Shown piece after piece: positions 3,874-53,667 of a stretch of 64,000 nt of DNA. The notes beneath the pieces were generated by a model. That model was not told where the DNA came from. It ran no database searches and was given only the letters and a program-made list of their open reading frames with translations. A program made the position numbers and the translations under genes. The stretch's first letter is position 1. Each line of letters opens with the position of its first letter. The stretch spans positions 256,001-320,000 of the forward strand of contig CM000432.1 of the NCBI GenBank assembly GCA_000165345.1, written 5' to 3'.

Positions 3874-4136
3874 ATGAAATTTAAATTAGTTTAGATTATT
3901 TTTAATTTTATTCAAACAATTATTTATCAATTAATATTTTAGTGTATTTATTCGAATTTTTTTTTTAAATTTATTTCAATGATTTATATATCCGGTACCT
4001 TTATTTAGATCTTGTATACCGGCATTTACGTGGTAATAAAAAAAAAAAAAAATATTCTTTTTTTATTATTGGAAAAAAGTAGATTTTAAAAAAAGAGAAT
4101 TAATGCAAAGAATGATATGAGTAGATTATTACAAGA

Positions 4137-5792
4137 ATGAATCTCGGATCTAAGTACGAGAATTTGGAGATCCCAGAAAATATATATTCTCTTTTTGGAA
4201 GGAAGAAGTTAAAGACTAATAAAAATAGGCAAGTGGGGACCTTTGATACAGCAATTTTTAAGAATAAAAGAATACACCCTGTTTTGCAGAAAGACCATTT
4301 TAAGGCAGGCTTACTTTTTTATAAGAAAAAATATCATGAAGTGGTAACTCCAAGTCTACTTAAGAATGTATCCTTTAATAATAAAAAAAATTCTTCAATG
4401 ATAACTTCAATCTCAAGTCACAAAGGTTTGTTAGCAATAAGTAACACAAAAGGTTCTATTGGGATTTATAACATCAGTGAAGTTCTGAAATACAGAGACC
4501 TGAACAATGGTAAAGGCCCAGAATTAAAATTCCCATTAGGATATGTATTAACAGAAAAAGAACAAAACAGGGTAAAAAGAGGTCGAAGTTTTAAGCTGGA
4601 ACCTGTCAATTACTTAAACCCTGGAGAAAATGAAAATCATAGAGGGGTGATTTCTACTATTCATTTAAGTCCTTTTGATGGACAATTATTTATAACAAGT
4701 GGTTGGGATGGAAATATTAAAATATGGGATACTTTTGATGGAACCTGTGTATTTACTTTAAAATCTCGTAGTAAAATTAACTATTCGGTCATCAATCAAA
4801 CAAATCCAAATATTGTAGGCTCAGCTCTACAGAATGGAAATGTTGGGATTCTAGACTTGAGAATTGGAGGAGAATTCTCTCAGACATTATTTTTGGACAA
4901 AAAAACTACAAATCTCAATTTAGACAGACCAGATTCACCTGTTCTAAGCATAGCTTGGAGAACAGATTCTGAACACATTTTAGCCAGTACATCCCAGAAT
5001 GGTTTTATTCGACTTTGGGATCTCAGATTTGCACAACAACCTTTTCTATATATGAATAGTAATCTAACAGATTGGGAATTTGTACAAGAAACTAATAGTA
5101 TAACCCCTTTATTGATTAGACAACAAATGATCTTGGAGGAAGGGAAAGATATCCATACCAAACAAATTAATCAAGAAAGAGAACAAAAACAAATTTGGAA
5201 ACATCAAAATATGAAAATAGAGCTAAATGAAGACGAAAAGAAATTTCTCAAAATTGGTAAGGAAAGCAATTGTGAGGAAAAAAGTACCCCTAAAGAAAGT
5301 TCTAATGACTTCTTTAATTCTTATCAAAGCCATTTTGGAATTAGTGCACCCAAAACTATTGGCTATGCTCATGAAAGTGGAGTAGGGTTTTGTCAATTCC
5401 TTAAGAATGGTAGATACCTAATCTCCTCAGCTCATGATGGAACCATTAAACTTTGGAATTCTTTAAATGGAAAGAATTGTTATATTAATTATGATAATTT
5501 TGAATCTCAAACTTTCTGGGAGGGAGACGGACTAGTTGAACCAGGAATTGATGACCAAATTCAAAAATACTTTAAAAGGTTTTCAGTAGATTCTGGAGAT
5601 CAAGATACCTTATTTCATCCAAATGGAAATGATATAGGTATTTGGAATATTAGAACAGGTAAATGCTTAAAAAGACTTTCTGCACATATTAATGCTAAAT
5701 CTGTATCTGTAATTCACTTAAGTCACTACTCTAATTTAATGTTTTCGGGAGACCAAAGTGGATTTGTACATATATGGAATACCAGCTATTAG
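4137..5792 (+). CDS. WD40-repeat protein, CSA/ERCC8-like (DCAF family) candidate
   Basis: Continuous 551-aa ORF with WD repeats: HLSPFDGQLFITSGWDGNIKIWDT, ILASTSQNGFIRLWDLR, LISSAHDGTIKLWNSLNG, MFSGDQSGFVHIWNT. The order and spacing resemble human ERCC8 (…SGGSDGVIVLYDL…, [37 protein letters not shown]). The WD40 call is firm. The CSA assignment is tentative. Confidence 0.7.
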   Translation: MNLGSKYENLEIPENIYSLFGRKKLKTNKNRQVGTFDTAIFKNKRIHPVLQKDHFKAGLLFYKKKYHEVVTPSLLKNVSFNNKKNSSMITSISSHKGLLAISNTKGSIGIYNISEVLKYRDLNNGKGPELKFPLGYVLTEKEQNRVKRGRSFKLEPVNYLNPGENENHRGVISTIHLSPFDGQLFITSGWDGNIKIWDTFDGTCVFTLKSRSKINYSVINQTNPNIVGSALQNGNVGILDLRIGGEFSQTLFLDKKTTNLNLDRPDSPVLSIAWRTDSEHILASTSQNGFIRLWDLRFAQQPFLYMNSNLTDWEFVQETNSITPLLIRQQMILEEGKDIHTKQINQEREQKQIWKHQNMKIELNEDEKKFLKIGKESNCEEKSTPKESSNDFFNSYQSHFGISAPKTIGYAHESGVGFCQFLKNGRYLISSAHDGTIKLWNSLNGKNCYINYDNFESQTFWEGDGLVEPGIDDQIQKYFKRFSVDSGDQDTLFHPNGNDIGIWNIRTGKCLKRLSAHINAKSVSVIHLSHYSNLMFSGDQSGFVHIWNTSY

Positions 5793-5815
5793 TACTATTG
5801 TTGAGTAGTTTCTAG

Positions 5816-6691
5816 TCATATTAATCTACTTAGCTGTTGAATTGTATCATTTGGATTTATTACATTATGTCCAATAACTCTTTTATCATTATAGATTTCG
5901 TGATCATTTCCACCAGGGTATGTTTTATCCCCAAAGAAGTGGATTTCATCAAACTTATTCTCAACATGTCTTAAACAATATCTTTTGTCCCATCCCTAAA
6001 TGAAGAAGAAAGTTAAAAACAAATAAAATATCACTAAATTTGAATTCTAGAAATTTCTCGACTTACCTGTGGGAATACATCTATTGATATCTGCCCTCCA
6101 ATAGAATATTGAAGATCAAGATCTGAAAACTCTTTTGATAAATCCTGAATAAACTTTTCTCTGATTCCATTCTTTTTGTCAAGCTCAAAGAATTCTAATC
6201 TCTCATCATAGGAACAATTTCTTCCAATTGGGGAAATATTCAACATTCCTGTTCTATATTCAATAAATGTACCTCTTTTGATTGGAATATCTAGATCTGC
6301 AATGTATCTTAAACAGAAATTGACAAATCTCTTGATGTTATCTTCTCCCAAATGTTTTGAAATGCTTTCTGAACTCACTTTTACTCCTTCATCGTGAAAT
6401 ACAACTCCATTTTCACTAAATATATAGTGACTACAAGCTAGCTCTAAAGATCAATATTAAATAAATTCCATTATAGAATAAAAAAAAAGAAAAAGGAAAT
6501 AAATATACAGTAAACTTACCATTATTCTGTAATTGCTCACATATTTTACTATAATCTGACCCACTAACTACTCCTATCTTAACTTTGCTCTTCGCATTTT
6601 TAAGAGTCATTACCATGTCCTCCATTATTGGTTTTCGTGGTAAAGTGAGGGTCCCATCTAAATCAAACAAAAATAACTTTTTTGAATCCAT
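5816..6691 (-). CDS. Phosphomannomutase (PMM), 3 exons: complement(join(5816..5995,6067..6443,6520..6691))
   Basis: Exon 1 encodes [20 protein letters not shown]...[20 protein letters not shown] (HAD DxDGT motif). Exon 2 encodes ...[30 protein letters not shown]...[70 protein letters not shown]. Exon 3 encodes [59 protein letters not shown]. The whole is collinear with human PMM2. Introns are 71 and 76 nt with GTAAGT donors and tttag acceptors, and phases are consistent. Confidence 0.8.
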
Positions 6692-6824
6692 TTGATTATT
6701 TTTTGTGTGTAAACTCAATTTCTATTGAACATTTATCTTAAAAAATAATAATAATAATAAATATTAAGCTAAATTCAAGCTTATTTATTTTTGCAATTAA
6801 AAATAGTTACCATTTATTTTGATG

Positions 6825-6838
6825 CTTGGCGCCAAAAC
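6825..6838. promoter_or_regulatory. E2F-like site CTTGGCGCCAAAAC in the divergent PMM / MCM7 promoter
   Basis: GGCGCC palindrome flanked by T/A runs, about 225 bp upstream of the MCM7 ATG. MCM genes are classic E2F targets in other eukaryotes. The adjacent CATGCCGGTAT (6838-6850) is a reverse-orientation copy of the ATACCGG motif. Confidence 0.55.
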
Positions 6839-7064
6839 ATGCCGGTATGTAGGCTATTAAGCAAAAAAAGGCCGACCCCACACTACGATTAATATTATTA
6901 AGTAATGAGGATTTGAAATTAAGATAAAGTTGGTGAAAAATTATTAAAAGAAATTGCATTCAAGAGGTAATAAAATCAAAAAAAAGCAACGCTTAGAGAT
7001 CAGTCAGAACAATTGAATTACCCTTAGAAAGCGTATTTTAAAGTCCAAGTTGGAAAGTACTAAC

Positions 7065-9638: not shown

Positions 9639-9692
9639 ATTAAAGAATAACAGAAGCTGAGATAACTAGAATAGGGAGTAAAAGTATTAGAA

Positions 9693-10892: not shown

Positions 10893-10916
10893 TTTTTTGT
10901 TATAATATTAGTGGAT

Positions 10917-10930
10917 GCATGTGCAATGAA
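10917..10930. promoter_or_regulatory. GATGCATGTGCAATG (TGCATG-type) motif just upstream of the membrane-protein ATG
   Basis: GCATG/TGCA palindromic core, recurring in several promoters in this window (see 40082, 27341, 31615, 43967). Confidence 0.3.
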
Positions 10931-11342
10931 ATCTTTATTTCCTGTTCATTCCAATCTTTAGTATATTTAAAATGGCTTAATAATTGTACATAAAATTTGA
11001 AAACTCATTCGTTAAATATTAAAGAGTAATAAGATATTTCTCTTAATATATTTAAATTTGAATTGATTTATCCAATTATTTTATTTTAAATAGTTTTGTA
11101 TCATTAATTTAAAATTGTGTGTGCAAATAAATAAGTGGTTTATACAAATAATATACCCATTAATTTCATTCCATTAAATATTTTTCTTCATTCAAAAAGT
11201 GGAATAATTGGAAAATAATTACTTAATAAAAGTAATTAAATCCCTAAAATTATTGGGTTGCACAAATACTTTCAATCATTATTTCATTCCACTTAATGTT
11301 TATATTAACATGAAAATATTAGAAAATAACTCGACTAAAATA

Positions 11343-11366
11343 TGGCGCCAAAGCGCTTTGGCGCCA
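11343..11366. promoter_or_regulatory. Perfect 24-bp palindrome TGGCGCCAAAGCGCTTTGGCGCCA (double E2F-like site)
   Basis: Its reverse complement is identical to itself. Two TTTGGCGCCA half-sites around a central AGCGCT. Sits in the divergent promoter between the membrane-protein gene (start 10892) and the kinase gene (start 11836). The 70-aa ORF 11208..11420 in the track simply reads through it. Confidence 0.6.
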
Positions 11367-11835
11367 AAACGAGCGGTATCTAAAAAAGAAAATGCATGCA
11401 ATATTAAAGAAAAAAAATAATGTATGGCAAAATTTGAGGAAACAAAAATTAAATAGAATTAATAAGTATTAAAGAAGTAATAGTTGTTTTAGATATTTAA
11501 TTATTATTTATTATTAAATCAAAATTTTTATAATTGAAGAGGAAATAAGTATAAAATATTTGACTAATAATGAATAAGATTTGAAAGAAAAGGGAAATAT
11601 AGATCAAGTTTCTAATAAATCTGGCCTTATTTATTTCAGATTTTTACATTCTTTGTTATAAAATAATTCTTAATTAGTATTACATATTACTATTGCAAAA
11701 TTAATTAATTAATAATTAATTAAAGTTATAAATATTAGTAGAAACGACTTCTGGAATATATTAAAAGTAAGGGAGTGGTTTTCTTTTTTCTTTTTTTTTT
11801 GAAATAACTAAATTATTATTGGAATATTAGAAGTT

Positions 11836-13036: not shown

Positions 13037-13498
13037 TCATCTCTTTTTCGTTCCTCGCATACTTATACTGATACTAATACTACTGTTACTACAACAACAA
13101 CTACCACTACAACAACAACTACAACAACAACTACTACTACCACTACAGCAACTACTTCTACCACTACTACCACTGTTACCATTGCTATCACTGCTACCGC
13201 TGCTACTGCTACCACTGCTACTGCTACCACTGCTACTGCTACCATTGCTACTGCTACCATTGCTACTGCTACCATTGCTACTGCTACCATTGCTACTGCT
13301 ACCATTGCTACTGCTACCATTGCTACTGCTACCACTGCTACTGCTACCACTGCTGCCACTATCATATTTGCCTCTCGCTCTTCCCATTCTCCTCCTCATC
13401 TTCCTCCTTTTCATCCTCCTTTTCATCCTCCCCCTCCCCTCTTTTGCTCCCCTTTCCTCTCTTCCAGGATTGTTAATAACTAAAATCATTTCAAGCAT
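13037..13498 (-). CDS. Candidate small basic/Ser-rich repeat protein (153 aa); coding strand uncertain
   Basis: The minus strand has a genuine ATG (complement 13496..13498), an Arg/Lys-rich N-terminus (RMKRRMKRRKMRRRMGRARGK), then (SSSNG)n and Cys/Ser runs, and it fits the convergent gene layout. The plus-strand alternative (poly-Thr, Pro-rich tail) has no ATG (the track start is TTG) and an upstream in-frame stop. Confidence 0.3.
   Translation of the reverse strand: MLEMILVINNPGREERGAKEGRGRMKRRMKRRKMRRRMGRARGKYDSGSSGSSSSGSSSNGSSSNGSSSNGSSSNGSSSNGSSSNGSSSSGSSSSGSSSSGSSDSNGNSGSSGRSSCCSGSSSCCCSCCCSGSCCCSNSSISISISMRGTKKR
13196..13360. repeat. 15-bp tandem repeat ACC(A/C)(T/C)TGCTACTGCT x about 11, with 6 perfect consecutive copies at 13241-13330
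   Basis: Read directly from the sequence. Embedded in a broader ACT/ACC/ACA/GCT triplet-repeat tract (about 13040-13370). Confidence 0.9.
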
Positions 13499-14168: not shown

Positions 14169-22476
<8,308 letters not shown>

Positions 22477-26742: not shown

Positions 26743-27579
26743 TTATTTAATTTTTTTAAAAATAATTCCTCTTTTAATTTATAACGAAAAAAAAAAAAAT
26801 TAGAAGTAAATGTTAATTCTAATAAAAAACCTCTTTGACCCTTAATTTTAATTCAATGCTTTATACTTAATTAATTTATTATCATTAATTTCACTATTGA
26901 CATATAATTTTTTTCAAAGTATTAGAACAAAATATTTATTTTATTTTATTTTATTTTTTTCAATTGATCAACTCTTTCTGTAATTAATTAATCAAAATAT
27001 TTTTTTTTTTAATAAAATAGTTGTAAAAAAAAGATATTTATATTTATTACACTGATCCCTTCTATATTAACGCATTTACTTCACATATTAAATATATTTC
27101 TTTGTCTTATTATTATTCTAATTTTTTTATTCCTATCTATTTAAAATTAATTAAAAAAAAAAATCTTTAGTGGTCAAAAAATGACGTGGCAATATTAAAT
27201 ATTTTTTTAAAAATTAATTTAAATAATTTTATGTGGACGAAGATTCTCCAATAAAATATTTTTTTTAATTCAAGATGGATTATATGGACATATTAATTAA
27301 CAAGTTGCAATAGTTCCTATACCGGTGTTTGACAATTTACATGCAGATTTGCATGCACACCACAACAAAAAAATTGACCTAAAAAAATATCTAAAATATA
27401 AAAGTTAAAGAGGAAAAAGGAAAGCTTTCCAATTTTTTCTTCAAGAAGAAGGAATTAATTTGAACTAATTTTGGTAAGTAAAAATTTTTTTTAAAAATTA
27501 ATATTACTTTATTTTTTAATTCGCAAATGTATATAATCATGTGCAATTTATATCAATTAAAAAAAAAAAAATTAAACTT

Positions 27580-34471: not shown

Positions 34472-34922
34472 ATATTTACTTATCTTTTTAGTTCAATGAT
34501 AATAATAACAATGACAATATTAAATAAATAATATTAATAATAATACTCTTAATTACCAATTCCTATTAGAAAATTGATTTGAATTTCAAATGACTTTTCC
34601 GTGTATATTGTTTATATATTAATATTAAGATTAAAATTTTTAAAAAAGTTATATATGTTGATTTTATTTTTTAAAATAGTCCCAGTTTATTTCATATTAA
34701 TTATTTAAATATATAATTTTTTCCACATGCAAAAAAAAAAAAATTATCAACAACGGTATAGGGAAAAAAATAATTTTTTTTTTGTCATGCAGTTATCTGG
34801 TATTAAAAAAAAAAAAGAAAAATTCGAAAATAACAATTAATTAATAAATTAACATTTAAAGAAGTATTCAAGAATAGAATTTGATTATATATCAAGTCTA
34901 GGAGAAGAACTAATCAATTAAG

Positions 34923-35844
34923 ATGAAGAATTTAATTGATATGAAAGATAAAGATGGAGATTTAATTAAAGGTAATTTTATCAGGAACAAATGTTGAATA
35001 AAATTTCATTAAAATATATTAAAAATAATAAAACAAAAACTTTAAACTACCTCCCACTATCTATTTTCTAAAATTATTTTTATTAATGCTTAAAACTCAA
35101 AAATAATAATAATAATATAATTAAATTACACAGCCAACAAAGATTCATTCATACAAGTAATTGTGGAAATGCACCAAAAACTAGGCGAAACTTTTGAATC
35201 AAACTTTAATAAAATAAGGTAAGTCTTAAATTCTTTAAAATAAAAGAAGAATTTTCTTCCTTTATTTTTTTTTAACTTTTATACACGTCATTAATTTATT
35301 GCATGCAATGACTACATGTACTTTCCCGCTCTTAGAGAAATTAATTACAAAATTAATCAAGATATTGAACAAATACAAGTAAGTTTTTTTTTATTTAAAA
35401 CAAACCTATTTAGTTAAAAAGGAGTTTGTTTTAAATAAAATGTTGATGGTAATGAATAGTATATTGATATAGAAAATTCTAAAAGGAAAGGAAGAAACAA
35501 AAAGAACTACTCCAGTAATATCTTCAACATAACTATAAGTATTAATGGCATTTGTGAGCCTTTATAACTTTATTATGTAAAAAAAACAGTTTTCTATATC
35601 AATATATTACCGCCTTACAACTATTACTCGAACAAATCTTATTCACTTACCATTTTCTTCCCTTAAACATTTTATTAAATTACTTGAAACTATAAATTAT
35701 TTATCTAAATTAAAGAACCTAATCACTAATGAAGAAAAAATCCAGAAAGATCTTCAAGAAAGAAACTCGGTCATTAATAATGTACTGAATGACTTTATGA
35801 ACACTATGCAGGCTACCATTAATGATGGGCCATCCAATAAATAG
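34923..35844 (+). CDS. Tentative small 4-exon coiled-coil protein (about 101 aa), join(34923..34971,35134..35218,35336..35378,35716..35844); absent from the ORF track
   Basis: ATG exon MKNLIDMKDKDGDLIK ends in G|GTAATT. The next exon follows ACACAG and ends AATAAAATAAG|GTAAGT. The next follows CTCTTAG and ends ACAAG|TAAGTT. The last follows AATTAAAG and runs open to a TAG: NLITNEEKIQKDLQERNSVINNVLNDFMNTMQATINDGPSNK*. Summed exon length is 306 nt, a multiple of 3. The 337-nt last intron and a possible missing internal exon are uncertain. Confidence 0.35.
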
Positions 35845-35937
35845 AAAATTCTTATAAATAACTATTTTCAATATTGTTATCAATTCTATTGCTACAACAA
35901 TTAGACTTTAGAATTTTTTTTATGTATCAAAATATAT

Positions 35938-38900
35938 CTACTTTTCACTTGTTACAATATTTATATTAACATTAGTATTCAAGACTTCATCTTCCACATT
36001 TTTACTACTCTCAACTTCCCCATTGATGATTGGGGATATACTTTGATTTGAAGTATTGAGACAATCTCCTCCGTCTTCCATTCTTTCCTCTCTTTCTTCT
36101 TTTCTTATATTCACATTTAAATTTGTATTACTTCCATCTTTAACTTTTGAACTTAAATTTGCAACAATAATACTATTTGCATTACGTCCAGAAATGCTCA
36201 TATTATTATTTGTATTGTTTCCTCCTCCTCCACTCCTTAATACTGCCTCTCCACTATTCACAGCGTTTAGTCTACACTGAATAGCCAATTTCTTTGCCTC
36301 ATTGAACCCATATTTTTTCACATAAAAATGTCTTGAGTGTCTTTTTCTATTCTGATCATACCATTCTGCTACCCATTCTTGATCTCTAGTCTTCCAATAT
36401 ACACCTGGAATTCCTGATTTATAACTAATTCCTCCCATATTCTTCTTTTTTGGAGATGTTATAGCTTTAATCTTTGAACTTGATGAAGAAGCTGGAGTGG
36501 AAGAAACTGTTGGAGCAGTAGATTCTGAAATTTCCAAAATATTGGCTGAATCTTTTATCATTGAAAAACTTGTTGAGTTTGAAGAAATCGAAGAATCTAC
36601 TGATGATGATGTTACTGATCTTGAAATCTTCTTCTCCTCCATTAAATTATCTGTTATATCTCCATTACTTGTACAATTATTTCCAATAATATTAATATTT
36701 CCATCACTTATACTACCACTGATATTGCTTCCACTATTTTTTAAAAAATTTTCATTAGCTATATTCATATTGTTTTCAATATTAATATTAATATTATTAT
36801 TATTGCTACTATTATTATTATTACTATTATTGCTAAAACTCGAATTTCCAGAAATTAAAGGCTCAAAAGATGTCAATAAGTTACTTATTCCTTGGTTATA
36901 ATTCATCATTTCTTCTCTTAATGGGTCAATTTTTTCCAGATTAATGGCTTCAACCATATTTGTATCGCTTCTAGGAACTAATATTCCATTTTCTTGTGAT
37001 ATTATCTTTTTAATCATTCCATTAATATCCATATTAGTATTATTACCATTATTGTTTTGTTGGCACTGAGACTGAATTTGAAATTGGCTTTGATTCTGAG
37101 ATTGATTTTGAGTTTGGTTCAAATGATTCAGTAATATGTTTTCTGTTAGATTTCCTGGAATATTCTGAAATTGATCTAAATTATTCAAGGATAATGATCC
37201 AAAATTATTATTACTACTTGTCGGTACCGATTTATTAGATCCCATTAAATTCTGTAATATGTTATACATATATTGGCTCTGGTGATTGCTTAGATGATTA
37301 ATATGATTATTTCCAGAATTGAATGTATTATTAATCGTTCCATTAGCTCCACTTGCTTGATTTATTCCAAGCATATTTGCCAAATTCGTATTCAAACTTG
37401 AATAGTTACTAAAATACCCTCCAACTCCATTATTAACTCCATTACCCAGTAATAAACTATTCATCATTTTACTTTTTGTCATTCCTTCAAGAGTAGAATC
37501 ATTTAACATTTGCAAAGGAGATAGATAATTAAAATCAATAGAATTCAACATATTTAAAGATGGTGAATTATTATAATTTCCATTGATATTATTGGTGTTG
37601 TTGTTCTTAGTAGTAAACCCTTCAGAATTATCACCAAAAAATTGATGCTTTAACATATTACCATAATAACTATTCAAATAATTGGAAATCATAGAATTGA
37701 GATTAACATTCATGTTATTAGCGTTATTTATATTACTTGGGCTTGAGCCACTTAATGCTCCATTCAAAAGTAACATATTTGATAGAATCATATTATTGTA
37801 ATCAGTTACCATATTATTGGTACCAACATTTCCGGTATTAGCTCCAAAATTACTGTTATTTGTACCTATAAGTCCATTATAACTGCTGTTATTAGTGCCA
37901 GTATTACTATTATTAGTATTGTTATTATTGCTATTATTATTGTTGCCACCATATAAATATTGCATTAATTGACTTAATAATAGCTGATAACTATTATTTT
38001 GAACAAGTATTGGTTGGCTCCCTTCAGTAGAATTATTATTATTATTATTACTTAAGCCATTTAAAGCAGAGAAGCTAGAACCATTCAAATTAATTAATGA
38101 AGAACTACTATTGCCGTTATTGTTATTATTACTATTACCATCGGCATTCAAGGGATTTATAATTCCAGAATTACCATAATTGTTGAAAATATTAAAACAA
38201 GAATTTGTAATTCCTGAAGAACCAGAGTAATTATTATGATATTTAAATTCTTTATTATTAACATACTCTACTACATTATCTCTCAATTTTTTTTCATTGA
38301 TTAACTTTACCCTCCATTCTATTGCTTTTAATCTTGAAATATCAATTCCATCCTCGCCAATCTCATAAGCAAAAGATTGAGTACATGTTTCATGTGTTAT
38401 TGAATCTAGCCAAACTCCTATCCAGACTTTATTTATTGGATGCCAAAATATTCCCTCATATTCGGCATCTTCTTTTAAATGTTTCATTTCTTCCATAAGT
38501 AACCCAATACCTTCATCACTCATATTATTCATAATTTTTTGTATATTCTTTTTCTCCATCAAATTCATAACAATTGATCTATCATCCTTTAATAAGTATT
38601 CAGGCCTTTCATATTCTGCTGTTCCATACTTTGCAATTCTCATTCCTTTTATACCTCCAATATAATTATGAGAGCCTATTGATGCACCTACTCCAGTCTC
38701 ACCCTGATGGCCACCACCTATATAGCAACTTTTATTCATATTTAAATACATCTTCCCTGTAAGACTAGTTTCATGTAACTTTCTTGCTGTTGCTTTTCCA
38801 TTTTCAATTGCATCAACCCTTGATTTTATTGCCATTTGCTTTGCATCTTCAAAACCATATACTCTTGCTGAAAAGCCGTGAGTAATTCTTCTTCCTGAAA

Positions 38901-39417
38901 TAGAATCACTCCACTGAGCAATCCATCTTTGACTACTTTCTTGCCAATAAACTCCAGGAACCCCACTTTGATGTTCTGCTCTTCTTAATCTAGTTCCAGT
39001 TCCTTTTCTAGTAGACACTATAGAACTATTAAAATCTTTTCTGCCAACTTCCACAGTTGTAACACCCTCCTCGCTGTTCTTTTCCTCATCTGATTTAGAA
39101 TCTTCATCATTAATAGCTTCGTCTTTATTAATAAAACTATCCTCTTGGTTCTGAACTTCTATATAATTCTGCTCCATAGTAACATCATCAATGATATTTT
39201 TAGAATTTTCGTCTGGTGTTTCAACATGATTTTCAATTTGAGATTGGACTTGTTGAATTTTACTATTACCAACTTCAACTTCGTTAGATTTATCAAAATT
39301 TTCACCAATTCCACATGTTGGTGTATCTTCTTGTGTAGAGTCCATAGTAGTATACTGACTCCAGTCTACAACTTCTTTATCAATAAAAACCTTTCCAGTT
39401 TCTAATTTTTCCTCCAT
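35938..39417 (-). CDS. ApiAP2 transcription factor with three AP2 domains (1159 aa)
   Basis: AP2 domains are SGVPGVYWQESSQRWIAQWSDSISGRRITHGFSARVYGFEDAKQMAIKSRVDAIENG, GIFWHPINKVWIGVWLDSITHETCTQSFAYEIGEDGIDISRLKAIEWRVK and SGIPGVYWKTRDQEWVAEWYDQNRKRHSRHFYVKKYGFNEAKKLAIQCRLNAVNSG. All three show the apicomplexan AP2 GVxW...W.A.W....R..F.....G...A...A core. They are separated by a very long Asn/Ser/Gln low-complexity region. Confidence 0.9.
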   Translation of the reverse strand: MEEKLETGKVFIDKEVVDWSQYTTMDSTQEDTPTCGIGENFDKSNEVEVGNSKIQQVQSQIENHVETPDENSKNIIDDVTMEQNYIEVQNQEDSFINKDEAINDEDSKSDEEKNSEEGVTTVEVGRKDFNSSIVSTRKGTGTRLRRAEHQSGVPGVYWQESSQRWIAQWSDSISGRRITHGFSARVYGFEDAKQMAIKSRVDAIENGKATARKLHETSLTGKMYLNMNKSCYIGGGHQGETGVGASIGSHNYIGGIKGMRIAKYGTAEYERPEYLLKDDRSIVMNLMEKKNIQKIMNNMSDEGIGLLMEEMKHLKEDAEYEGIFWHPINKVWIGVWLDSITHETCTQSFAYEIGEDGIDISRLKAIEWRVKLINEKKLRDNVVEYVNNKEFKYHNNYSGSSGITNSCFNIFNNYGNSGIINPLNADGNSNNNNNGNSSSSLINLNGSSFSALNGLSNNNNNNSTEGSQPILVQNNSYQLLLSQLMQYLYGGNNNNSNNNNTNNSNTGTNNSSYNGLIGTNNSNFGANTGNVGTNNMVTDYNNMILSNMLLLNGALSGSSPSNINNANNMNVNLNSMISNYLNSYYGNMLKHQFFGDNSEGFTTKNNNTNNINGNYNNSPSLNMLNSIDFNYLSPLQMLNDSTLEGMTKSKMMNSLLLGNGVNNGVGGYFSNYSSLNTNLANMLGINQASGANGTINNTFNSGNNHINHLSNHQSQYMYNILQNLMGSNKSVPTSSNNNFGSLSLNNLDQFQNIPGNLTENILLNHLNQTQNQSQNQSQFQIQSQCQQNNNGNNTNMDINGMIKKIISQENGILVPRSDTNMVEAINLEKIDPLREEMMNYNQGISNLLTSFEPLISGNSSFSNNSNNNNSSNNNNININIENNMNIANENFLKNSGSNISGSISDGNINIIGNNCTSNGDITDNLMEEKKISRSVTSSSVDSSISSNSTSFSMIKDSANILEISESTAPTVSSTPASSSSSKIKAITSPKKKNMGGISYKSGIPGVYWKTRDQEWVAEWYDQNRKRHSRHFYVKKYGFNEAKKLAIQCRLNAVNSGEAVLRSGGGGNNTNNNMSISGRNANSIIVANLSSKVKDGSNTNLNVNIRKEEREERMEDGGDCLNTSNQSISPIINGEVESSKNVEDEVLNTNVNINIVTSEK

Positions 39418-40081
39418 TTTGAGAATTCACTCAAAAAAATTGCCTTATTTAAATATCAAAATGACTATCTTATATAATAATAGAATAATCTATCAGCTTC
39501 TTAAATATTCCGTATTTTAACTTGCAAATCCAATAGCTTAATAACTAATTTTTGCCAGATTGCTTCTTTAAATTTGAAATTAATCTTGTTTTCAAAATAA
39601 TTCTTCACAAACTCTGCTCTTTTATAAAATTACCTTAATATATTTACATATGTATATATATAAGCATATATATATATATATATATATATGTACATTTATA
39701 CATATATACTTTTTTTTAGTTTTAATCTTTACTTCATATTAATTCAATTAGCTTGTATTATTTATATCTCTAAGACTTTATCCTTCTCTTGTTATAACAC
39801 AACTTAAGAATAAAGAAAAGTCTTAATTATTGCTTCCCAATACTGCTTTGTTTTATTTTGGAAAACTTCTTTAAATATATATTTATATTTTTTGAATATA
39901 AATCAATATTTAGTCATTTAATGACGAACTGCACTTTTATCCACGATTTACTTGTATGTTAACATTTTTTTAAACATTTCTGCATACCTCGTGCCATGTA
40001 AACATATCAATATTATTACTCTTTCCTACATTTACTGCTATTTTAGTATTATTTTCTTTTTTTTTCAGCAATCTATCCTCA

Positions 40082-40105
40082 CATGCGCATGCAAATGCAT
40101 GCAAT
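40082..40105. promoter_or_regulatory. Clustered CATGCGCATGCAAATGCATGCAAT (overlapping GCATGC / TGCATGCA palindromes)
   Basis: Lies about 670 bp upstream of the ApiAP2 ATG, in the only intergenic region serving it. TGCATGCA is the core bound by several apicomplexan AP2 domains (established knowledge). A GGCGGGAA-type site TATGGCGGGAACC (40136-40148) lies 30 bp away. Confidence 0.45.
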
Positions 40106-40291
40106 ACCTACAATGTGGGCAAAAATAATTCCACGTATGGCGGGAACCTGACAAAATTATAAATATTTAAAACAAGGTGCTTGTTTAATTGAAAATAGAC
40201 TAAAGGAAGAGAAAATAATACAGGAAAAAGCTGAAAATCCCCGTGATAATAGTTAAAATTTTAACAATTTGCGATTCTAAGCTAGAATTTA

Positions 40292-41829: not shown

Positions 41830-41862
<33 letters not shown>

Positions 41863-43887: not shown

Positions 43888-43903
43888 TCTATACCGGTAT
43901 CAC
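43888..43903. promoter_or_regulatory. TCTATACCGGTATCAC (ATACCGG motif) about 150 bp upstream of the secreted-protein ATG
   Basis: Member of the recurring TATACCGG(C/T) family (4014, 27316, 53418, reverse at 6841). GTGCATGCGCATATGCATG (43967-43985) lies 65 bp further upstream. Confidence 0.4.
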
Positions 43904-46403: not shown

Positions 46404-46504
46404 TAATGATAAAGTTCATCAAATAATACGATTAAAAAAATTACTATAATATATCTAATTTATAATATGTGAATAAATTTTAATTGGAATTATATTTATA
46501 TATA

Positions 46505-48304: not shown

Positions 48305-48581
48305 GATTATTAATTATTGATAATCACATGAATTAAGTTTGATTTAATTAATATTATTGGTTTGACAAGTCTTATTTTTTTCTTATAATTGGAAAAAAGT
48401 CTTAATAAATTCTCAGTTTAAAGAATGAAGAGGATAAATACTTGATACTTGTTACCTAATTTAAAATAATATTACTAACTTATTAGAGTTAGAAAAAGAA
48501 ATTGATTAGGTTGCAGCTAAAATTTGTACCTTTTTCTAATTAATAATCAATTCTAAATATAATCAAAAAATAAGAAATGCA

Positions 48582-48600
48582 CCTGGCGCTGGCGCCAGAG
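48582..48600. promoter_or_regulatory. E2F-like direct repeat CCTGGCGCTGGCGCCAGAG
   Basis: RlmN / RPT2 divergent promoter. Further sites are TATGCGCGCCAAATG (48810-48824) and GAGGGGGCGGGCAAATTTT (48855-48873). Confidence 0.45.
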
Positions 48601-49144
48601 CTATGAATACCAATATATTTACTATATTAAACTTGACTATAGATATTTTCAGCTTTGCTATTTACATGAAAGCACCTATTATTAATATTTAAGAACAAAG
48701 AAACTTTCAAAGTTCCAAAAAATTTATTTGATTATCTTTTTAATATTTTTTCATGCAATAATTATTAATAATAGTGATTGTTTAGGGCTTTTTAAAATTT
48801 AAGAGCAATTATGCGCGCCAAATGTTTGATCCATTAAATTATTGGGTATAAGAATGAGGGGGCGGGCAAATTTTAAGGGGGTATATTATATAAATAATTT
48901 ATTGGGGCAAAAGTAATAATAATAAATAAATGCGTTAAATTTTAACTGTATTGTTATAATAGCATTAATAAAGTACAAGAAGATTTCTAAGGTACAAATT
49001 TCAATAAGGTAATAATTTTGAGGAGAAGAGTAATAAAAGGAATCTTTTGGAGAGACTGGCAATTCAAATTAAGGCAGATTTGAATATAATACACACACAA
49101 TAAAATATATGCTCAAGTAAGGTAAAGGTAGGTTAGAGAAAAGT

Positions 49145-50482: not shown

Positions 50483-50500
50483 GCAACTTTTTCATAGACA

Positions 50501-50514
50501 TTTTCCCGCCTTTG
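50501..50514. promoter_or_regulatory. Canonical E2F consensus TTTTCCCGCCTTTG in a 3' convergent intergenic region
   Basis: Matches TTTSSCGC. Located 20 bp after the RPT2 stop. A second site GTTTTGGCGCCAAC is at 50866-50879. Both lie between the 3' ends of two convergent genes, which is unusual placement. Confidence 0.35.
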
Positions 50515-50913
50515 TCACTTCTAACTTTTATTATCAATTTAAGTAAAATAATGAATCGGGATATGTAACAATGAATAAGTAGGTCTAATATATATCTGTT
50601 AGTTTTATTTTGAGAAAGGATATATTTGTAGAATTTTTATTTTCTATTAAAATCTCTGGAAATTTTATTGGAATATGATTTTGTCTTAGTATAGTCACTC
50701 TAACTATTTCTCCCTCCTCACGCTTAAACAAGCATGAATTATATACTTAAAATAATTGTAATGAAGTGACGATAATAAGTAAATTCCCCTAACTTAAGAT
50801 GCCAGTTTTGATTCTAATCATTTTATTTGCACGAGTGTGTGGGGCCAGTGGAAATGAAAACGCATGTTTTGGCGCCAACTGATATTTTATTTTATTCTAA
50901 TATTGCATTTTAA

Positions 50914-51246
50914 TTAAGTCAGCTTGGTAAATTTTTTTCTGGAAAATTTACTAAAAATATCACCAAATAAATTATAAGCTCTGTAGTTAGGATCTTTGTT
51001 TGCTCGTTTTTTATAAATCTTTGTATAATAGTAGTAACCTAATCCAGTAGAGAAGAATAAAAAAGAAAATAAGAGAAATCTGTTAAATAATTTAGAAACA
51101 TGCTTTTTTTTAATATTTTTACTTAATATTTGTGCCGATTTTATATCAATATTTTCAAGTATCTTATCTTTAAGTGTATCAATTGATTTATTGGAGAATA
51201 GCTCTTTTAAAAGAAGAGAAAAGCTTGTACTTATAAAAGCGCTCAT
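50914..51246 (-). CDS. Hypothetical small tail-anchored membrane protein (110 aa)
   Basis: Real ATG. Single hydrophobic segment FLLFSFLFFSTGLGYYYY near the C-terminus with a basic tail. Confidence 0.4.
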   Translation of the reverse strand: MSAFISTSFSLLLKELFSNKSIDTLKDKILENIDIKSAQILSKNIKKKHVSKLFNRFLLFSFLFFSTGLGYYYYTKIYKKRANKDPNYRAYNLFGDIFSKFSRKKFTKLT

Positions 51247-51475
51247 ATTCTTAACTTTTTTATATAGAAATTGTTCTTAAAAGTATAGCTTTCTTATAAC
51301 GAAATAAAAAGGTAAATTATTGACAGAATATTGTTACTCTTTCTACAGACTTTTCTTTTTTTATATTCTGAATAATCTTACTTCCTTATATCCTCTTTTT
51401 TTAATCTACAAATCCAATCCTTCAAAAGTTTAAATAATAATATAACAATTTATTAAATGAAAAAAAAATTCATGC

Positions 51476-51495
51476 AGAGTTTGGCGGGCTTTTCC
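51476..51495. promoter_or_regulatory. E2F-like site AGAGTTTGGCGGGCTTTTCC
   Basis: Divergent promoter between the 51246 (-) start and the 51629 (+) start. Confidence 0.45.
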
Positions 51496-51628
51496 AAATA
51501 GTTATTAAAAAATTTGAAAAAGGTTTAATATTTTAATTATTCATTAAGATGAAAAATAACTAAATTTTTTTATTAAATAAAAATAATTAATTAATTAAAA
51601 TTAAGTAAACTGATTTTTGAGTTAAAAT

Positions 51629-52036
51629 ATGGCAAAATGCCGTGGGTTTAAGCCAGGAGGAGTTGACAACCCATATTATTATAATAAGAGAAAGATTGTC
51701 AAACAAGAAGGATCTACAATCAAGGAAAGACTTCAGAGATCAACAAGGCCAACATGGGAGGAATTAAGAAAAATGGCAAATAAAACATCAGAGGGATTCT
51801 GTAATATTGACGATAATACTATAAGAAATGATGAATATAAAAGAAAGCTCGACAGAACAAGAGAAGAAAAGCTATCATCAATGATGAATTACAATTCAAA
51901 TAATCAAAATAAATATTATAAAAATAATGATAACAATGAAAACAGTTGTAATTCTGGAAAATATAATAAAGTTTGTGTGGAAAAAAAAAGATCTCGTTCA
52001 TTTGATAGATCATCGCCAAATAATGATAATTTATAA
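51629..52036 (+). CDS. Hypothetical small basic Asn-rich protein (135 aa), possibly nuclear
   Basis: MAKCRGFKPGGVDNPYYYNKRKIVKQEGS...RSTRPTWEELRKMANK. The RPTWE motif faintly recalls the Cwc15 N-terminus, but this is not assignable. Its stop lies 21 bp from the UFD1 stop on the other strand. Confidence 0.4.
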   Translation: MAKCRGFKPGGVDNPYYYNKRKIVKQEGSTIKERLQRSTRPTWEELRKMANKTSEGFCNIDDNTIRNDEYKRKLDRTREEKLSSMMNYNSNNQNKYYKNNDNNENSCNSGKYNKVCVEKKRSRSFDRSSPNNDNL

Positions 52037-52057
52037 AGGATCCAGTCTGGTCTGATA

Positions 52058-53026
52058 TCATTTCTTAACAACACCAACAATTCCTGGAATTCTTCCGCTC
52101 TTAATTAGTTCCTGATATTTCTCGTTATATGTCCTAACACCTCCAGGTATTCTGTCAGTTTTCCATGGTTCAGGATTCGAATTATTTGTTTGACCACTTT
52201 TATTGCTATATAGACTACTACTGCTGTTAAGTTTTATGGGTTTGCCATCCAATCTTTCGCAGTGGCCAGAAAATATTGAGTCAGTATTACTCATTGAATA
52301 TTCTGAAGTAACAGATGCTGTCAAATTAGTATCAGTCATTGTTCTACTTTCACTCTTGTTATAATCTTCAACATAATCAGGCGGTGGCGCAAAATCGACT
52401 TGAATATCAGTTTCTATGATTGAAATTGCATTATTTGGCTTAGTTTCAAGAACATTTATCCTATATGAATTGTTATTGTAATGAATAGTTATAATATCAC
52501 CAACTGTTAAAGTTGCAAAGTTTCTCAAAGTTGTTTCCAAAACTGCCTTAGGATTAGATATATCCAAGAAATCCATTGATAAGGGCATAAACTTAACATA
52601 AGTACCTTTGCTTAATGATGTATTCATGATTGAAGTAATGTCTCCTTCTTGTAATTCAAGATTCTGCATCATCCAATAAGGCATATAGCATGTGCCTTCT
52701 TCAGCAACAAATTCCAAAACACCAGAATGCGTAAATTTATTCTTTGCAGGGTTGCTAATTTGGAACAACATTGGCCAAGTAATGTTTCTTCTAGCCAATT
52801 GATTTAAAGCTGATGGAGGTAGTAGTATTTTGTTTCCACCTTCAAGCTCATCTCTTCCTGCAAAACTTACTGGATAACAAGAGTATTCATTGATAAATAG
52901 ATTAGAACTTGAGCTTCTAAAGTTAGATCCACCCCTGTTAATTTGTTCAAAATCATCATGTATATTGTCATTTTCAAATCCTCCTGAGAAAAAATTACCA
53001 GATGTAAATCTACTAAAACCAAACAT
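52058..53026 (-). CDS. UFD1: Ubiquitin fusion degradation protein 1 (UFD1), Cdc48/p97 cofactor
   Basis: YSCYPVSFAGRDELEGGNKILLPPSALNQLARRNITWPMLFQISNPAKNKFTHSGVLEFVAEEGTCYMPYWMMQNLELQEGD...NPKAVLETTLRNFATLTVGDIITIHYNNNSYRINVLETKP is collinear with the UFD1 double-psi beta-barrel. The C-terminal FSGHCERLDGK resembles the SHP box FSGSGNRLDGK. Confidence 0.9.
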   Translation of the reverse strand: MFGFSRFTSGNFFSGGFENDNIHDDFEQINRGGSNFRSSSSNLFINEYSCYPVSFAGRDELEGGNKILLPPSALNQLARRNITWPMLFQISNPAKNKFTHSGVLEFVAEEGTCYMPYWMMQNLELQEGDITSIMNTSLSKGTYVKFMPLSMDFLDISNPKAVLETTLRNFATLTVGDIITIHYNNNSYRINVLETKPNNAISIIETDIQVDFAPPPDYVEDYNKSESRTMTDTNLTASVTSEYSMSNTDSIFSGHCERLDGKPIKLNSSSSLYSNKSGQTNNSNPEPWKTDRIPGGVRTYNEKYQELIKSGRIPGIVGVVKK

Positions 53027-53389
53027 TCTTCGATTTTTCTATAAATGACTTCTTACAATAAAGGCATAAGATTTCTTTAACTTGATAAAGAATATTTCAA
53101 ACAATAATAGTTTCTTGATTTCTTTTTATAGATTTTTTCAAATATATTATTAATATTTTATAACCCCCTTTCCCTACTTGGACGATTCAATCATTTAACT
53201 GATAAAAAGAAAATAGAAAAAAAGTAAAATTCCAGTTTCTGAATTAATTAATATCAAATTCCTTTATGAATTTACCGTAAAAAATGCAACAATTTATTCA
53301 GCTTGATATCTTTTCTTTCTAATAAATTATTATCATTCTTTATTCCCTAAATAAAGTTAAAACTCGTAAAAATAATACCATCTCTATCG

Positions 53390-53407
53390 TTAAGGCGGGA
53401 AAACCCC
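53390..53407. promoter_or_regulatory. E2F-like site TTAAGGCGGGAAAACCCC
   Basis: GGCGGGAAAA is the classic E2F core. It lies about 370 bp upstream of the UFD1 ATG. The adjacent TCTATACCGGCATTTC (53418-53433) is another ATACCGG motif copy. Confidence 0.5.
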
Positions 53408-53667
53408 ACATGTCATTCTATACCGGCATTTCTTGCAATACGTATATGTTCACATGCAATATAATATTTATGTGGAAAGAAATACAAAAGAACATAGTTT
53501 AGCAAATAAATCAAATAAAATTTATTATTAATATTTTCAACAAACTATTGTTTTTGTTTTTTTTAAATATTAATTAGTAAAAAAAATTAGTATAAAGATT
53601 TTTATCTATTTTAGAATTAACTTTTATATTATTTATATAATAAAAATAGTAATATTTACCAAATAAA

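What the first reader, a model, noticed from the sequence alone, without database searches (positions are those of the whole stretch)
3987..53433. A second recurring promoter motif: TATACCGG(C/T)RTTT
GTATACCGGCATTTACG (4014-4030, with TATATCCGGTACC just upstream), CCTATACCGGTGTTTGAC (27316-27333), TCTATACCGGTATCAC (43888-43903), TCTATACCGGCATTTC (53418-53433), and the reverse copy CATGCCGGTAT (6838-6848). All five are intergenic and 100-400 bp upstream of an ATG. In a genome of about 75% AT, a specific 8-mer with four G/C is expected roughly 0.6 times in 64 kb on both strands, so 5 intergenic copies is a clear excess. I do not recognise this as a described apicomplexan cis-element.
Basis: seen in the sequence. 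Interest (0 to 1): 0.55.

Follow-up and report, generated by a model that had tools for sequence, protein, structure and literature searches.

The report
Conserved CCGGTATA promoter element in Cryptosporidium
A short DNA word (about ATRCCGGTATAGA) recurs between genes in this Cryptosporidium parvum chromosome segment and stays unchanged at the same places in four to five other Cryptosporidium species, so it is very probably a binding site for a still unknown regulatory protein, and it is missing from published motif lists for this parasite.

Summary
The window is Cryptosporidium parvum. In detail: TATACCGG occurs 4 times (0.2 expected), plus the reverse copy at 6839. All copies are intergenic.

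Counting alone is weak. The word ranks 131st among window 8-mers (P=1e-4). Within intergenic DNA it is 4 copies versus 0.08 expected, and only 2% of simulations produce any 8-mer as extreme.

Conservation decides it. At all five sites the element sits in invariant islands in C. parvum, chipmunk genotype I, C. ubiquitum and C. canis, although only 3% of intergenic 6-mers are invariant. In C. bovis it is present at 3 of 4 orthologous regions tested, twice with the perfect half-site on the other strand.

The consensus should be redefined as AYRCCGGTATAGRA, with partial dyad ATRCCGGYAT. Two weaker copies exist (34754, 11374).

Orientation relative to genes is mixed, and flanking genes are functionally unrelated. 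About 7 of 21 promoter regions carry it. Three copies lie 13-25 bp from an E2F site.

Best reading: an orientation-independent binding site for an unidentified, probably constitutive factor. It matches none of the six published C. parvum motif families or the listed AP2 specificities. Genome-wide counts, start-site mapping and protein binding were not testable.

The parts
4013..4025 (-). Site 1. TGTATACCGGCAT on the + strand, which reads ATGCCGGTATACA on the - strand. It lies about 115 bp upstream of the WD-repeat gene (ATG 4137, +), in a 263-bp tandem intergenic region.
   Evidence: TACCGGC is invariant in 4 species. C. bovis has CCGGTATAT about 100 bp upstream of the orthologous ATG, with the perfect half-site on the opposite strand.
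3992..4012 (+). Site 1b. An inverted partner CCGGTACC followed by the invariant 20-bp block CGGTACCTTTATTTAGATCT (3993-4012). Together with site 1 it forms an inverted pair CCGGTA...TACCGG.
6839..6851 (+). Site 2. ATGCCGGTATGTA in the divergent PMM (-, ATG about 6691) / MCM7 (+, ATG about 7065) promoter. It starts 3 bp after the E2F palindrome TTGGCGCCAA (6826-6835).
   Evidence: ACATGCCGGTATGTA is invariant in 4 species. C. bovis has TATACCGGCTTA at the equivalent place upstream of the conserved ACCCCACACT.
11374..11387 (+). Site 7 (weak variant). CGGTATCTAAAAAA follows a TTGGCGCCAAAAC E2F site, 8 bp after its core against 6 bp at site 2. It lies in the divergent promoter between the 399-aa gene (ATG 10892, -) and a kinase gene (ATG 11836, +).
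   Evidence: GGTATCTAAAAAA is invariant in 4 species. The 5' part is CCGG only in chipmunk genotype I, GCGG in C. parvum, and AAGG or GAGG in the other two.
27316..27328 (-). Site 3. CCTATACCGGTGT on the + strand, which reads ACACCGGTATAGG on the - strand. It lies in the divergent region between the DUF7899 gene (ATG 26742, -) and the zf-MYND gene (ATG 27699, +).
   Evidence: CTATACCG is invariant in 3 species. C. canis reads AACGGTATAGAAA.
34750..34762 (+). Site 6 (variant). ACAACGGTATAGG lies about 283 bp upstream of a 149-aa gene on the - strand. It is 18 bp downstream of the end of an invariant TTCCACATGCAAAAA block.
   Evidence: The C. canis ortholog is a full ACCGGTATAGGG. C. ubiquitum has the degraded form ACGTTATAGGG.
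43888..43900 (-). Site 4. TCTATACCGGTAT, containing the perfect 10-bp palindrome ATACCGGTAT. It lies about 145 bp upstream of a small secreted-protein gene (ATG 43745, -). A conserved GTCCACAT follows 6 bp after it.
   Evidence: The 13 bp are invariant in 4 species. C. bovis keeps ATGTGGA-N8-CCGGTATAG 111 bp upstream of the orthologous ATG.
53417..53429 (-). Site 5. TCTATACCGGCAT on the + strand, which reads ATGCCGGTATAGA on the - strand. It lies about 393 bp upstream of UFD1 (ATG 53026, -). A conserved G-box (CCCCACATGTCA) and an E2F-like AGGCGGGAAA are adjacent.
   Evidence: TCTATACCGGCA is invariant in 4 species. The element is absent from the orthologous C. bovis region, although the G-box and E2F are kept there.

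Best explanation
The element, about 13 bp with consensus AYRCCGGTATAGRA and core CCGGTAT (partial dyad ATRCCGGYAT), is a cis-regulatory binding site for a sequence-specific DNA-binding protein of Cryptosporidium that has not yet been matched to a motif.

It sits in the compact promoter regions 100-600 bp upstream of start codons, among or next to E2F, TGCATGCA, G-box and ATGTGGA elements. It works in either orientation. It serves genes of unrelated function: a WD-repeat protein, PMM/MCM7, zf-MYND/DUF7899, a small secreted protein, UFD1 and a kinase. That pattern points to a widely used, probably constitutive factor that helps set up or activate promoters, similar to a yeast general regulatory factor, rather than a pathway-specific switch.

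The partial dyad suggests a dimer, and so does the way the perfect half-site changes strand between C. parvum and C. bovis. The most plausible candidates are the uncharacterised non-stage-specific Myb-type or C2H2 zinc-finger proteins.

Shown: recurrence, restriction to intergenic DNA, purifying selection, independence from orientation, unrelated flanks.
Inferred: protein binding, the effect on transcription, and the identity and oligomeric state of the factor.
For: Recurrence: TATACCGG occurs 4 times versus 0.2 expected. ATRCCGGYAT has 4 exact copies, and with one mismatch allowed 6 matches versus 1.58 expected. CCGGTA occurs 12 times versus 1.9 expected. In intergenic DNA only, P=1.9e-6, and 2% of simulations contain any 8-mer as extreme.

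Intergenic bias: CGGTAT has 8 copies in 16 kb of intergenic DNA versus 2 in 40 kb of genic DNA (Fisher P=0.001).

Conservation: local alignments of all five orthologous regions show the element inside invariant islands in 3-4 species. Background invariance of intergenic 6-mers is 3.2%, or 8.5% for GC-rich ones. The core is invariant at 4 of 5 sites (binomial P about 2e-4 on the conservative rate). None of the 5 genic CCGGTA copies is conserved.

Unbiased ranking: among recurring conserved intergenic k-mers the family comes next after ATGTGGA, E2F and TGCATG. Its conserved fraction, CCGGTA 4/7 (5/7, which counts the palindromic site once per strand), is higher than for the E2F words (7/17) or TGCATG (7/28).

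Deeper conservation: it is present in 3 of 4 orthologous C. bovis regions.

Not a dispersed repeat: the flanks are unrelated beyond about 14 bp.

Not a described element: it is absent from published motif lists and AP2 specificities. Myb and C2H2 binding sites are uncharacterised in Cryptosporidium.
Against: No binding or expression data are available. Only 64 kb of one genome plus its orthologous segments were examined, so the genome-wide excess is untested.

The whole-window count is not significant after correction for multiple 8-mers.

The element is lost upstream of UFD1 in C. bovis. It is not clearly present at the two orthologous regions seen in C. muris.

In two weak sites only the GGTAT(A/C) half is invariant. 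The CCGG part and the TATA-like part could therefore be separable elements.

Dyad symmetry rests partly on A/T positions, which are weak evidence in AT-rich DNA.

A sporozoite ATAC-seq motif analysis reported only E2F and poly-T motifs, but it listed only the top three motifs.
Confidence: 0.62

Rival explanations
1. It is a core-promoter element of the BRE-plus-TATA type. The TATA-like half (TATAGAA; TATATAAA in C. ubiquitum) would be bound by TBP. The abutting GC-rich half (RCCGG) would be read by TFIIB. Together they would fix the transcription start about 30 bp downstream, including starts of antisense or non-coding transcripts where the element points away from the gene.
For: The element has a GC-rich pentamer directly abutting TATA in nearly every copy. 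At site 1 in C. ubiquitum it reads CCGGTATATAAAG, which contains a canonical TATA box. Other conserved GGTATAAGAA-type blocks exist without CCGG (48845). The element serves unrelated genes. It is present in 4 of the 6 promoter regions that lack an E2F-like site. C. parvum has abundant antisense transcription (review PMC12246861), which could explain the copies that point away from the gene.
Against: Orientation relative to the served gene is not constant. It is antisense at sites 1 and 6, and the strand carrying the perfect half-site changes in C. bovis at two sites. The distance to the ATG varies from about 110 to about 580 bp. Position 5 of the TATA is usually G, which departs from TATAWAWR. 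Site 2 reads TATGTAG and site 7 reads TATCTAA. The BREu consensus SSRCGCC (my own knowledge) is not matched. No start-site data were available.
Confidence: 0.17
2. It is a roadblock or insulator site rather than an activator site. A tightly bound Myb-like factor, in the manner of yeast Reb1 or mammalian TTF-I, would stop read-through polymerase and fix nucleosome positions between closely packed genes.
For: Four of the 7 copies lie in tandem junctions between the 3' end of one gene and the 5' end of the next (sites 1, 4, 5, 6). It works in either orientation. The word resembles the Reb1 site GTTACCCGGC apart from one C: TACC-GGC. The genome is very compact, and read-through or polycistronic transcripts have been reported.
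Against: The split of 4 of 11 tandem versus 3 of 10 divergent promoter regions shows no preference (my tally). The sequence is not the Reb1 consensus. No Reb1 or TTF-I orthologue was looked for or could be looked for here. No termination data exist.
Confidence: 0.1
3. The element acts at the RNA level, as a 5'-UTR or non-coding RNA motif, or is part of an unannotated small exon.
For: The copies lie within a few hundred bases of start codons. A possible 5'-UTR intron lies downstream of site 3 (GTAAGT at 27477). Conservation alone does not distinguish DNA-level from RNA-level function.
Against: The element occurs in both orientations relative to the adjacent gene. The footprints are only 12-15 bp and are flanked by unconserved sequence. 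There were no Rfam or tRNA hits in the window. A 10-bp palindrome is too short to form a stable hairpin. The strand carrying the perfect half-site changes in C. bovis.
Confidence: 0.05
4. It is a chance recurrence or compositional artefact, picked out after the fact from about 33,000 possible 8-mers.
For: In the whole window the 8-mer ranks 131st with P=1e-4, which is what multiple testing alone can produce.
Against: In intergenic DNA alone, only 2% of simulations reach its P value. Conservation is independent of how the motif was chosen. All five sites are conserved in 3-4 species against a 3-8% background, and three are retained in C. bovis.
Confidence: 0.03

Closest known systems
Cryptosporidium E2F/DP site (TTGGCGCCAA, TTTGGCGGGAA)
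   Same: Both are short GC-containing words in AT-rich intergenic DNA. Both recur upstream of functionally unrelated genes, are palindrome-like, work in either orientation and are conserved across species. Three copies of the new element lie 13-25 bp from an E2F site, and two of those both follow TTGGCGCCAAAAC.
   Different: The sequence is different: there is no [C/G]GCGC[G/C] core. It is less frequent here, in about 7 of 21 promoter regions versus 15 of 21 for E2F-like sites. A larger fraction of its copies is conserved. No trans factor is known for it.
AP2_1 (TGCATGCA), G-box (G.GGGG) and the other published C. parvum motif families and ApiAP2 specificities
   Same: The same kind of object: an over-represented upstream word, presumed to be a transcription-factor binding site.
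   Different: None of the 25 motifs of PMC3734150 contains CCGG or GGTAT, and neither do the 6 families and the AP2 primary motifs tabulated in PMC12246861. The text of the P. falciparum ApiAP2 compendium has no such word either.
Yeast general regulatory factor Reb1 site (GTTACCCGGC)
   Same: Both are words found in many unrelated promoters and in either orientation. They share the core TACC(C)GG(C). Reb1 is a Myb-type protein, and Cryptosporidium has uncharacterised DNA-binding Myb proteins that are not stage-specific.
   Different: There is one C fewer in the core, and the conserved TATAG extension has no counterpart in the Reb1 site. No homologous protein was identified. Nucleosome exclusion or roadblock activity is untested. 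This is a functional analogy only.
BREu + TATA box core promoter (TFIIB/TBP)
   Same: A GC-rich element directly upstream of a TATA-like sequence. It is used by unrelated genes.
   Different: BREu SSRCGCC and TATAWAWR (my own knowledge) are not matched in most copies. The orientation and the distance to the gene are not fixed.
Myb recognition element YAACKG and the Grainyhead palindrome AACCGGTT (both recalled from my own knowledge)
   Same: Natural variants of the element read AACGGTAT, in C. canis at site 3 and in C. parvum at site 6. These contain the Myb core AACGG. ACCGGT is the centre of the Grainyhead site.
   Different: Most copies have ACCGG or GCCGG rather than AACGG. The conserved flank TATAG is foreign to both. 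As far as I know, Grainyhead/CP2 proteins are not known in Apicomplexa.

Membership tests
Conserved cis-regulatory element (phylogenetic footprint / transcription-factor binding site) | Occurs more often than chance in non-coding DNA | tested here: met
   There are 4 copies versus 0.2 expected. In intergenic DNA only, 4 versus 0.084 expected, P=1.9e-6, reached by any 8-mer in 2% of simulations. The whole-window rank alone is weak.
Conserved cis-regulatory element (phylogenetic footprint / transcription-factor binding site) | Conserved at orthologous positions while the flanks diverge | tested here: met
   All five sites are conserved in 3-4 species. The background rate is 3.2-8.5%. C. bovis retains 3 of 4.
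Conserved cis-regulatory element (phylogenetic footprint / transcription-factor binding site) | Confined to promoter-containing intergenic regions | tested here: met
   All 7 copies lie in intergenic regions that contain at least one gene start. The density of CGGTAT is about 10-fold higher in intergenic than in genic DNA.
Conserved cis-regulatory element (phylogenetic footprint / transcription-factor binding site) | Bound by a specific protein and affects transcription | not testable with these tools
   This needs EMSA, pull-down, DAP-seq or reporter mutagenesis.
E2F/DP binding site | Core [C/G]GCGC[G/C] flanked by T- and A-runs (PMC3734150) | tested here: not met
   The core here is CCGG followed by TAT, and no copy contains GCGC.
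ApiAP2 sites known in C. parvum (AP2_1 TGCATGCA, AP2_2 GCACAC, G-box, GTGTGT, GCGTGCA) | Match to a specificity determined by protein-binding microarray | tested here: not met
   No listed specificity resembles the element. The words CCGG, GGTA and TACC are absent from the texts searched. Motif logos in figures could not be read.
TATA box with upstream TFIIB recognition element | TATAWAWR preceded by SSRCGCC | tested here: inconclusive
   TATA is present in most copies. The fifth base is usually G, and the upstream part is RCCGG rather than CGCC. One orthologue reads TATATAAA.
TATA box with upstream TFIIB recognition element | Fixed orientation toward the gene and a fixed distance of about 30 bp to the transcription start | tested here: not met
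   Orientation is antisense to the only adjacent gene start at sites 1 and 6, and the strand of the perfect half-site changes in C. bovis. The distance to the start site itself is not testable without RNA 5'-end data.
Reb1-type general regulatory factor site | Core TTACCCG | tested here: not met
   The element reads (A/T)TACCGG, with one C fewer.
Reb1-type general regulatory factor site | Bound by a Myb-type protein; lies in nucleosome-depleted promoter DNA; blocks polymerase | not testable with these tools
   No chromatin, binding or nascent-RNA data could be reached.
Dispersed repeat / mobile-element remnant | Copies share homologous flanks beyond the core | tested here: not met
   An alignment of 71-bp windows around 7 copies shows similarity only over about 14 bp.
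Structured non-coding RNA | Match to a known RNA family, or a conserved helix with covariation | tested here: not met
   There were no Rfam hits at gathering threshold and no tRNAs in the window. The footprints are too short for a helix.

The most novel reading that the evidence does not exclude
CCGGTATA(G) is a major, previously overlooked promoter element of intestinal Cryptosporidium species. It would be present in a fifth to a third of promoters, several hundred sites genome-wide, and bound by a constitutive Myb-like or zinc-finger factor. It would organise promoters, or insulate tightly packed genes, particularly those without an E2F site. That would make it a seventh motif family and the first general regulatory factor site for this parasite.
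Probability: 0.3. Interest if true: 0.65.

Novelty: new member of a known kind. Interest (0 to 1): 0.5.

Why it matters
Gene regulation in Cryptosporidium is poorly understood. A 2025 review lists only six upstream motif families, and no Myb or zinc-finger protein has been assigned a binding site.

This element is better conserved per copy than E2F or TGCATGCA sites in this region, and it sits in about a third of the promoter regions here. That gives a concrete bait for identifying a new regulator by pull-down, DAP-seq or one-hybrid.

It would also help in designing minimal promoters for transgenesis. It would improve promoter annotation in a genome where intergenic regions are only a few hundred bases long.

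The same comparison shows that simple four-species footprinting now works well in Cryptosporidium, and that it reveals other unassigned elements such as ATGTGGA.

Tried and rejected
- Rfam and tRNA scans of the window found nothing, so there is no sign that the copies flank small RNA genes.
- Literature searches for the literal words (CTATACCGG, CCGGTATAG, TATACCGG, CCGGTATA, ACCGGT) together with Cryptosporidium returned only unrelated primer sequences. A search for footprinting studies in Cryptosporidium found nothing relevant.
- Bankier et al. 2003 could not be opened. From memory of its abstract it reports only two abundant repeats.
- No supplementary files were held for the C. parvum AP2 paper, and motif logos in figures cannot be read.
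- Treating the common + strand of the four exact copies as meaningful was rejected. Relative to the genes the orientation is mixed, and the core is palindrome-like.
- A fixed composite with ATGTGGA was rejected. Spacing and orientation differ between sites, although the pair at site 4 is kept in C. bovis.
- A preference for tandem over divergent gene junctions was rejected (4/11 versus 3/10).
- A dispersed-repeat origin was rejected.
- A genome-wide count was not possible.

Full report
**Origin of the window.** The 551-aa protein encoded at 4137-5792 is identical to a WD-repeat protein of Cryptosporidium parvum Iowa II. It is found on 1.1-Mb C. parvum chromosome records CP029783.1 and CP141121.1. 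The window shows the compact, largely intron-poor gene layout expected of this genome.

**The observation.**
- TATACCGG occurs four times, all on the + strand (4015, 27318, 43890, 53419). Dinucleotide shuffles give a mean of 0.20.
- The reverse copy at 6838-6848 and the upstream TATATCCGGTACC at 3987-3999 are as described.
- A palindrome-like ATRCCGGYAT fits four sites exactly and 27319 with one mismatch.
- One coordinate is off by one: the copy is at 53417-53432.

All copies are intergenic, but the gene map corrects the "upstream of an ATG" statement.
- 4015 lies about 115 bp before the WD gene.
- 6839 lies in the divergent PMM/MCM7 promoter.
- 27318 lies in the divergent DUF7899/zf-MYND region.
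- 43890 and 53419 serve minus-strand genes: a small secreted protein with ATG 43745, and UFD1 with ATG 53026.

**Is it more than chance?**

*Counting.* In the whole window the 8-mer ranks 131st by Poisson P under a first-order Markov model (P=1e-4). That is unremarkable among about 33,000 words. I then restricted the count to 15.5 kb of intergenic DNA, defined by projecting the C. ubiquitum gene calls through whole-segment alignments. There it is 4 versus 0.084 expected (P=1.9e-6, rank 43). Most higher-ranked words are poly-A, AT repeats, one tandem repeat, or overlapping E2F and GCATGC words. Only 2% of Markov-1 simulations contain any 8-mer as extreme. CGGTAT is about ten times denser in intergenic than in genic DNA (8 versus 2 copies, Fisher P=0.001).

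*Conservation.* This test is independent of how the motif was chosen. I fetched the syntenic segments of several species:
- C. ubiquitum (L006, L012, L009)
- Cryptosporidium chipmunk genotype I (L007, L010)
- C. canis (L008, L013, L011)
- C. bovis (L016, L014)
- C. muris (L015)

Local alignments of the five orthologous intergenic regions put every copy in an invariant island:
- TACCGGC at site 1, with an adjacent invariant 20-mer CGGTACCTTTATTTAGATCT
- ACATGCCGGTATGTA at site 2
- CTATACCG at site 3
- TCTATACCGGTAT at site 4
- TCTATACCGGCA at site 5

In whole-segment MAFFT alignments covering 56 kb of the window, only 3.2% of intergenic 6-mers are invariant, or 8.5% of GC-rich ones. Runs of at least 8 invariant bases make up 4.7% of intergenic DNA. 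The core is invariant at 4 of 5 sites and changes one base in C. canis at the fifth. None of the five genic CCGGTA copies is conserved.

An unbiased ranking of recurring conserved intergenic k-mers puts this family directly after ATGTGGA/TCCACAT, the E2F words and TGCATG. Its conserved fraction is CCGGTA 4/7 and CGGTATAG 3/4, higher than E2F (7/17) or TGCATG (7/28).

In C. bovis, whose proteins are only about 43-55% identical, the element is present in three of four orthologous regions:
- Upstream of the WD gene: CCCGGTATATG, about 100 bp from the ATG.
- In the PMM/MCM7 region: TATACCGGCTTA, upstream of the conserved ACCCCACACT.
- Upstream of the small secreted gene: ATGTGGA-N8-CCGGTATAG.

It is absent upstream of UFD1 in C. 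bovis, where the neighbouring G-box and E2F survive. In C. muris only a partial TACCGGCA was seen, upstream of the small gene.

**Anatomy.** Oriented as CCGGTAT, the copies read AAATG-CCGG-TATACAAG, ACATG-CCGG-TATGTAGG, AAACA-CCGG-TATAGGAA, TGATA-CCGG-TATAGAAA and AAATG-CCGG-TATAGAAT. The consensus is therefore about AYRCCGGTATAGRA.

Two weaker copies emerged.
- 34754: AACGGTATAGGG. The C. canis orthologue is a full ACCGGTATAGGG, and C. ubiquitum is degraded.
- 11374: CGGTATCTAAAAAA. Here GGTATCTAAAAAA is invariant, and chipmunk genotype I has the full CCGG.

The left flank, ATR, mirrors the right flank, TAT. Site 4 is a perfect 10-bp palindrome. Between C. parvum and C. bovis the perfect half-site changes strand at two sites. 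All of this fits a dimer on a dyad, but the evidence is soft in AT-rich DNA.

Flanks beyond about 14 bp are unrelated, so this is not a dispersed repeat.

Orientation relative to the served gene is mixed. It is sense at sites 4 and 5, antisense at sites 1 and 6, and ambiguous in the three divergent promoters.

The adjacent genes share no obvious function.

About 7 of 21 promoter-containing intergenic regions carry a copy. Three copies lie 13-25 bp from an E2F-like site, and two of those both follow TTGGCGCCAAAAC. Four of the six promoter regions without an E2F-like site carry the element. These numbers are small.

**Mechanism.** The best-supported reading is an orientation-independent binding site for a sequence-specific factor that is used widely rather than by one pathway. 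The analogy is a general regulatory factor that cooperates with, or stands in for, E2F/DP in very short promoters. Recurrence, intergenic restriction, purifying selection and orientation independence are shown. Binding, the effect on transcription and the factor's identity are inferred.

None of the AP2 domains assayed binds anything similar. The binding sites of the 16 Myb-domain proteins and of the C2H2 proteins are unknown, which makes them the natural candidates.

Rivals:
- A BRE-plus-TATA type core promoter element. This is attractive because a GC-rich pentamer abuts TATA, and C. ubiquitum reads TATATAAA at site 1. It is weakened by the variable orientation and distance.
- A Reb1-like roadblock or insulator. 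The word differs from GTTACCCGGC by one C, but there is no preference for tandem junctions.
- An RNA-level element. This is contradicted by the occurrence in both orientations, by the short footprints and by the absence of Rfam hits.
- Pure chance. This is contradicted by conservation.

**Comparison with what is known.** The 25 over-represented motifs of Oberstaller et al. 2013 (PMC3734150) contain no CCGG or GGTAT word. Neither does the text of the C. parvum AP2 study (PMC4117751), Mullapudi et al. 2007 (PMC1779779), an ApiAP2 review (PMC6631176), the P. falciparum ApiAP2 compendium (PMC2965767) or the motif and AP2 tables of the 2025 review (PMC12246861). The 2025 ATAC-seq preprint reports only E2F and poly-T among its top three motifs. 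Bankier et al. 2003 could not be read.

Within the literature I could reach, the element is undescribed. It is a new member of a familiar kind, a promoter cis-element, and not a new kind of system.

**Limits.** There is no genome-wide count, no transcription start data, no chromatin data and no binding data. Conservation was tested at seven loci on one chromosome segment. The gastric species are represented by two orthologous regions only.

**Verdict.** The interpretation as a recurring, undescribed promoter motif is supported by strong phylogenetic footprinting. It is of moderate interest, mainly to people working on Cryptosporidium gene regulation.

Noticed in passing
window 27231, 31568, 31654, 34722, 43907, 53470: ATGTGGA/TCCACAT is the best-conserved recurring intergenic 7-mer here. 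All 6 aligned intergenic copies are invariant in 3-4 species. Three lie 10-90 bp from a CCGGTAT site, and C. bovis keeps ATGTGGA-N8-CCGGTATAG at L014:14051-14073. It may correspond to the unassigned 'A[T/A]G[T/A]GGA.A' motif mentioned for class II COWP genes in PMC3734150. It is not in the 2025 review's motif table.
   Followed up: partly
window 3993-4012: A 20-bp block CGGTACCTTTATTTAGATCT is invariant in four species. It lies between two inverted CCGGTA copies upstream of the WD-repeat gene. This is far longer than a usual single binding site, and its function is unknown.
   Followed up: partly
window 39895-40137: A dense run of invariant blocks lies 480-720 bp upstream of the AP2 gene (35938..39417, minus strand). 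The blocks include AATGACGAACTGCA, TATCCACGATTTA, ATGTTAACATTTT, CTCGTGCCATGTAAACATA and ATAATTCCACGTA. Just outside that run there are also two TGCATGCA copies (40092-40110) and an E2F-like site (40139). It looks like an unusually complex promoter or a conserved 5' leader. There was no Rfam hit.
   Followed up: no
window 6826-6848 and 11357-11379: Two unrelated divergent promoters share the composite TTGGCGCCAAAAC-N3/4-GC(C)GGTAT. The E2F site and the GGTAT element are in the same order and at nearly the same spacing.
   Followed up: partly
window 48845-48884: Conserved blocks GGTATAAGAATGAGGGGGCGGG and AAGGGGGTAT lie about 300 bp upstream of the proteasome ATPase gene. They contain a GGTATA element without the CCGG part, next to a G-rich or E2F-like word.
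   Followed up: no
window 34941-35847: Many short invariant blocks lie in what the projected annotation calls intergenic DNA, downstream of the AP2 gene's stop. This may be an unannotated exon, a conserved 3' UTR or a small gene.
   Followed up: no
window 13172-13354: A 15-bp tandem repeat (ACTGCTACCATTGCT, 12 copies, 94% matches) lies in a region that only one of the two C. parvum annotations calls a gene. It inflates several 8-mer counts in the intergenic statistics.
   Followed up: no
L015:5455-5495 (C. muris): The region upstream of the C. muris UFD1 orthologue carries a tandem CTACTGGTAA repeat (five copies, the last partial) where the intestinal species have the conserved promoter block.
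   Followed up: no
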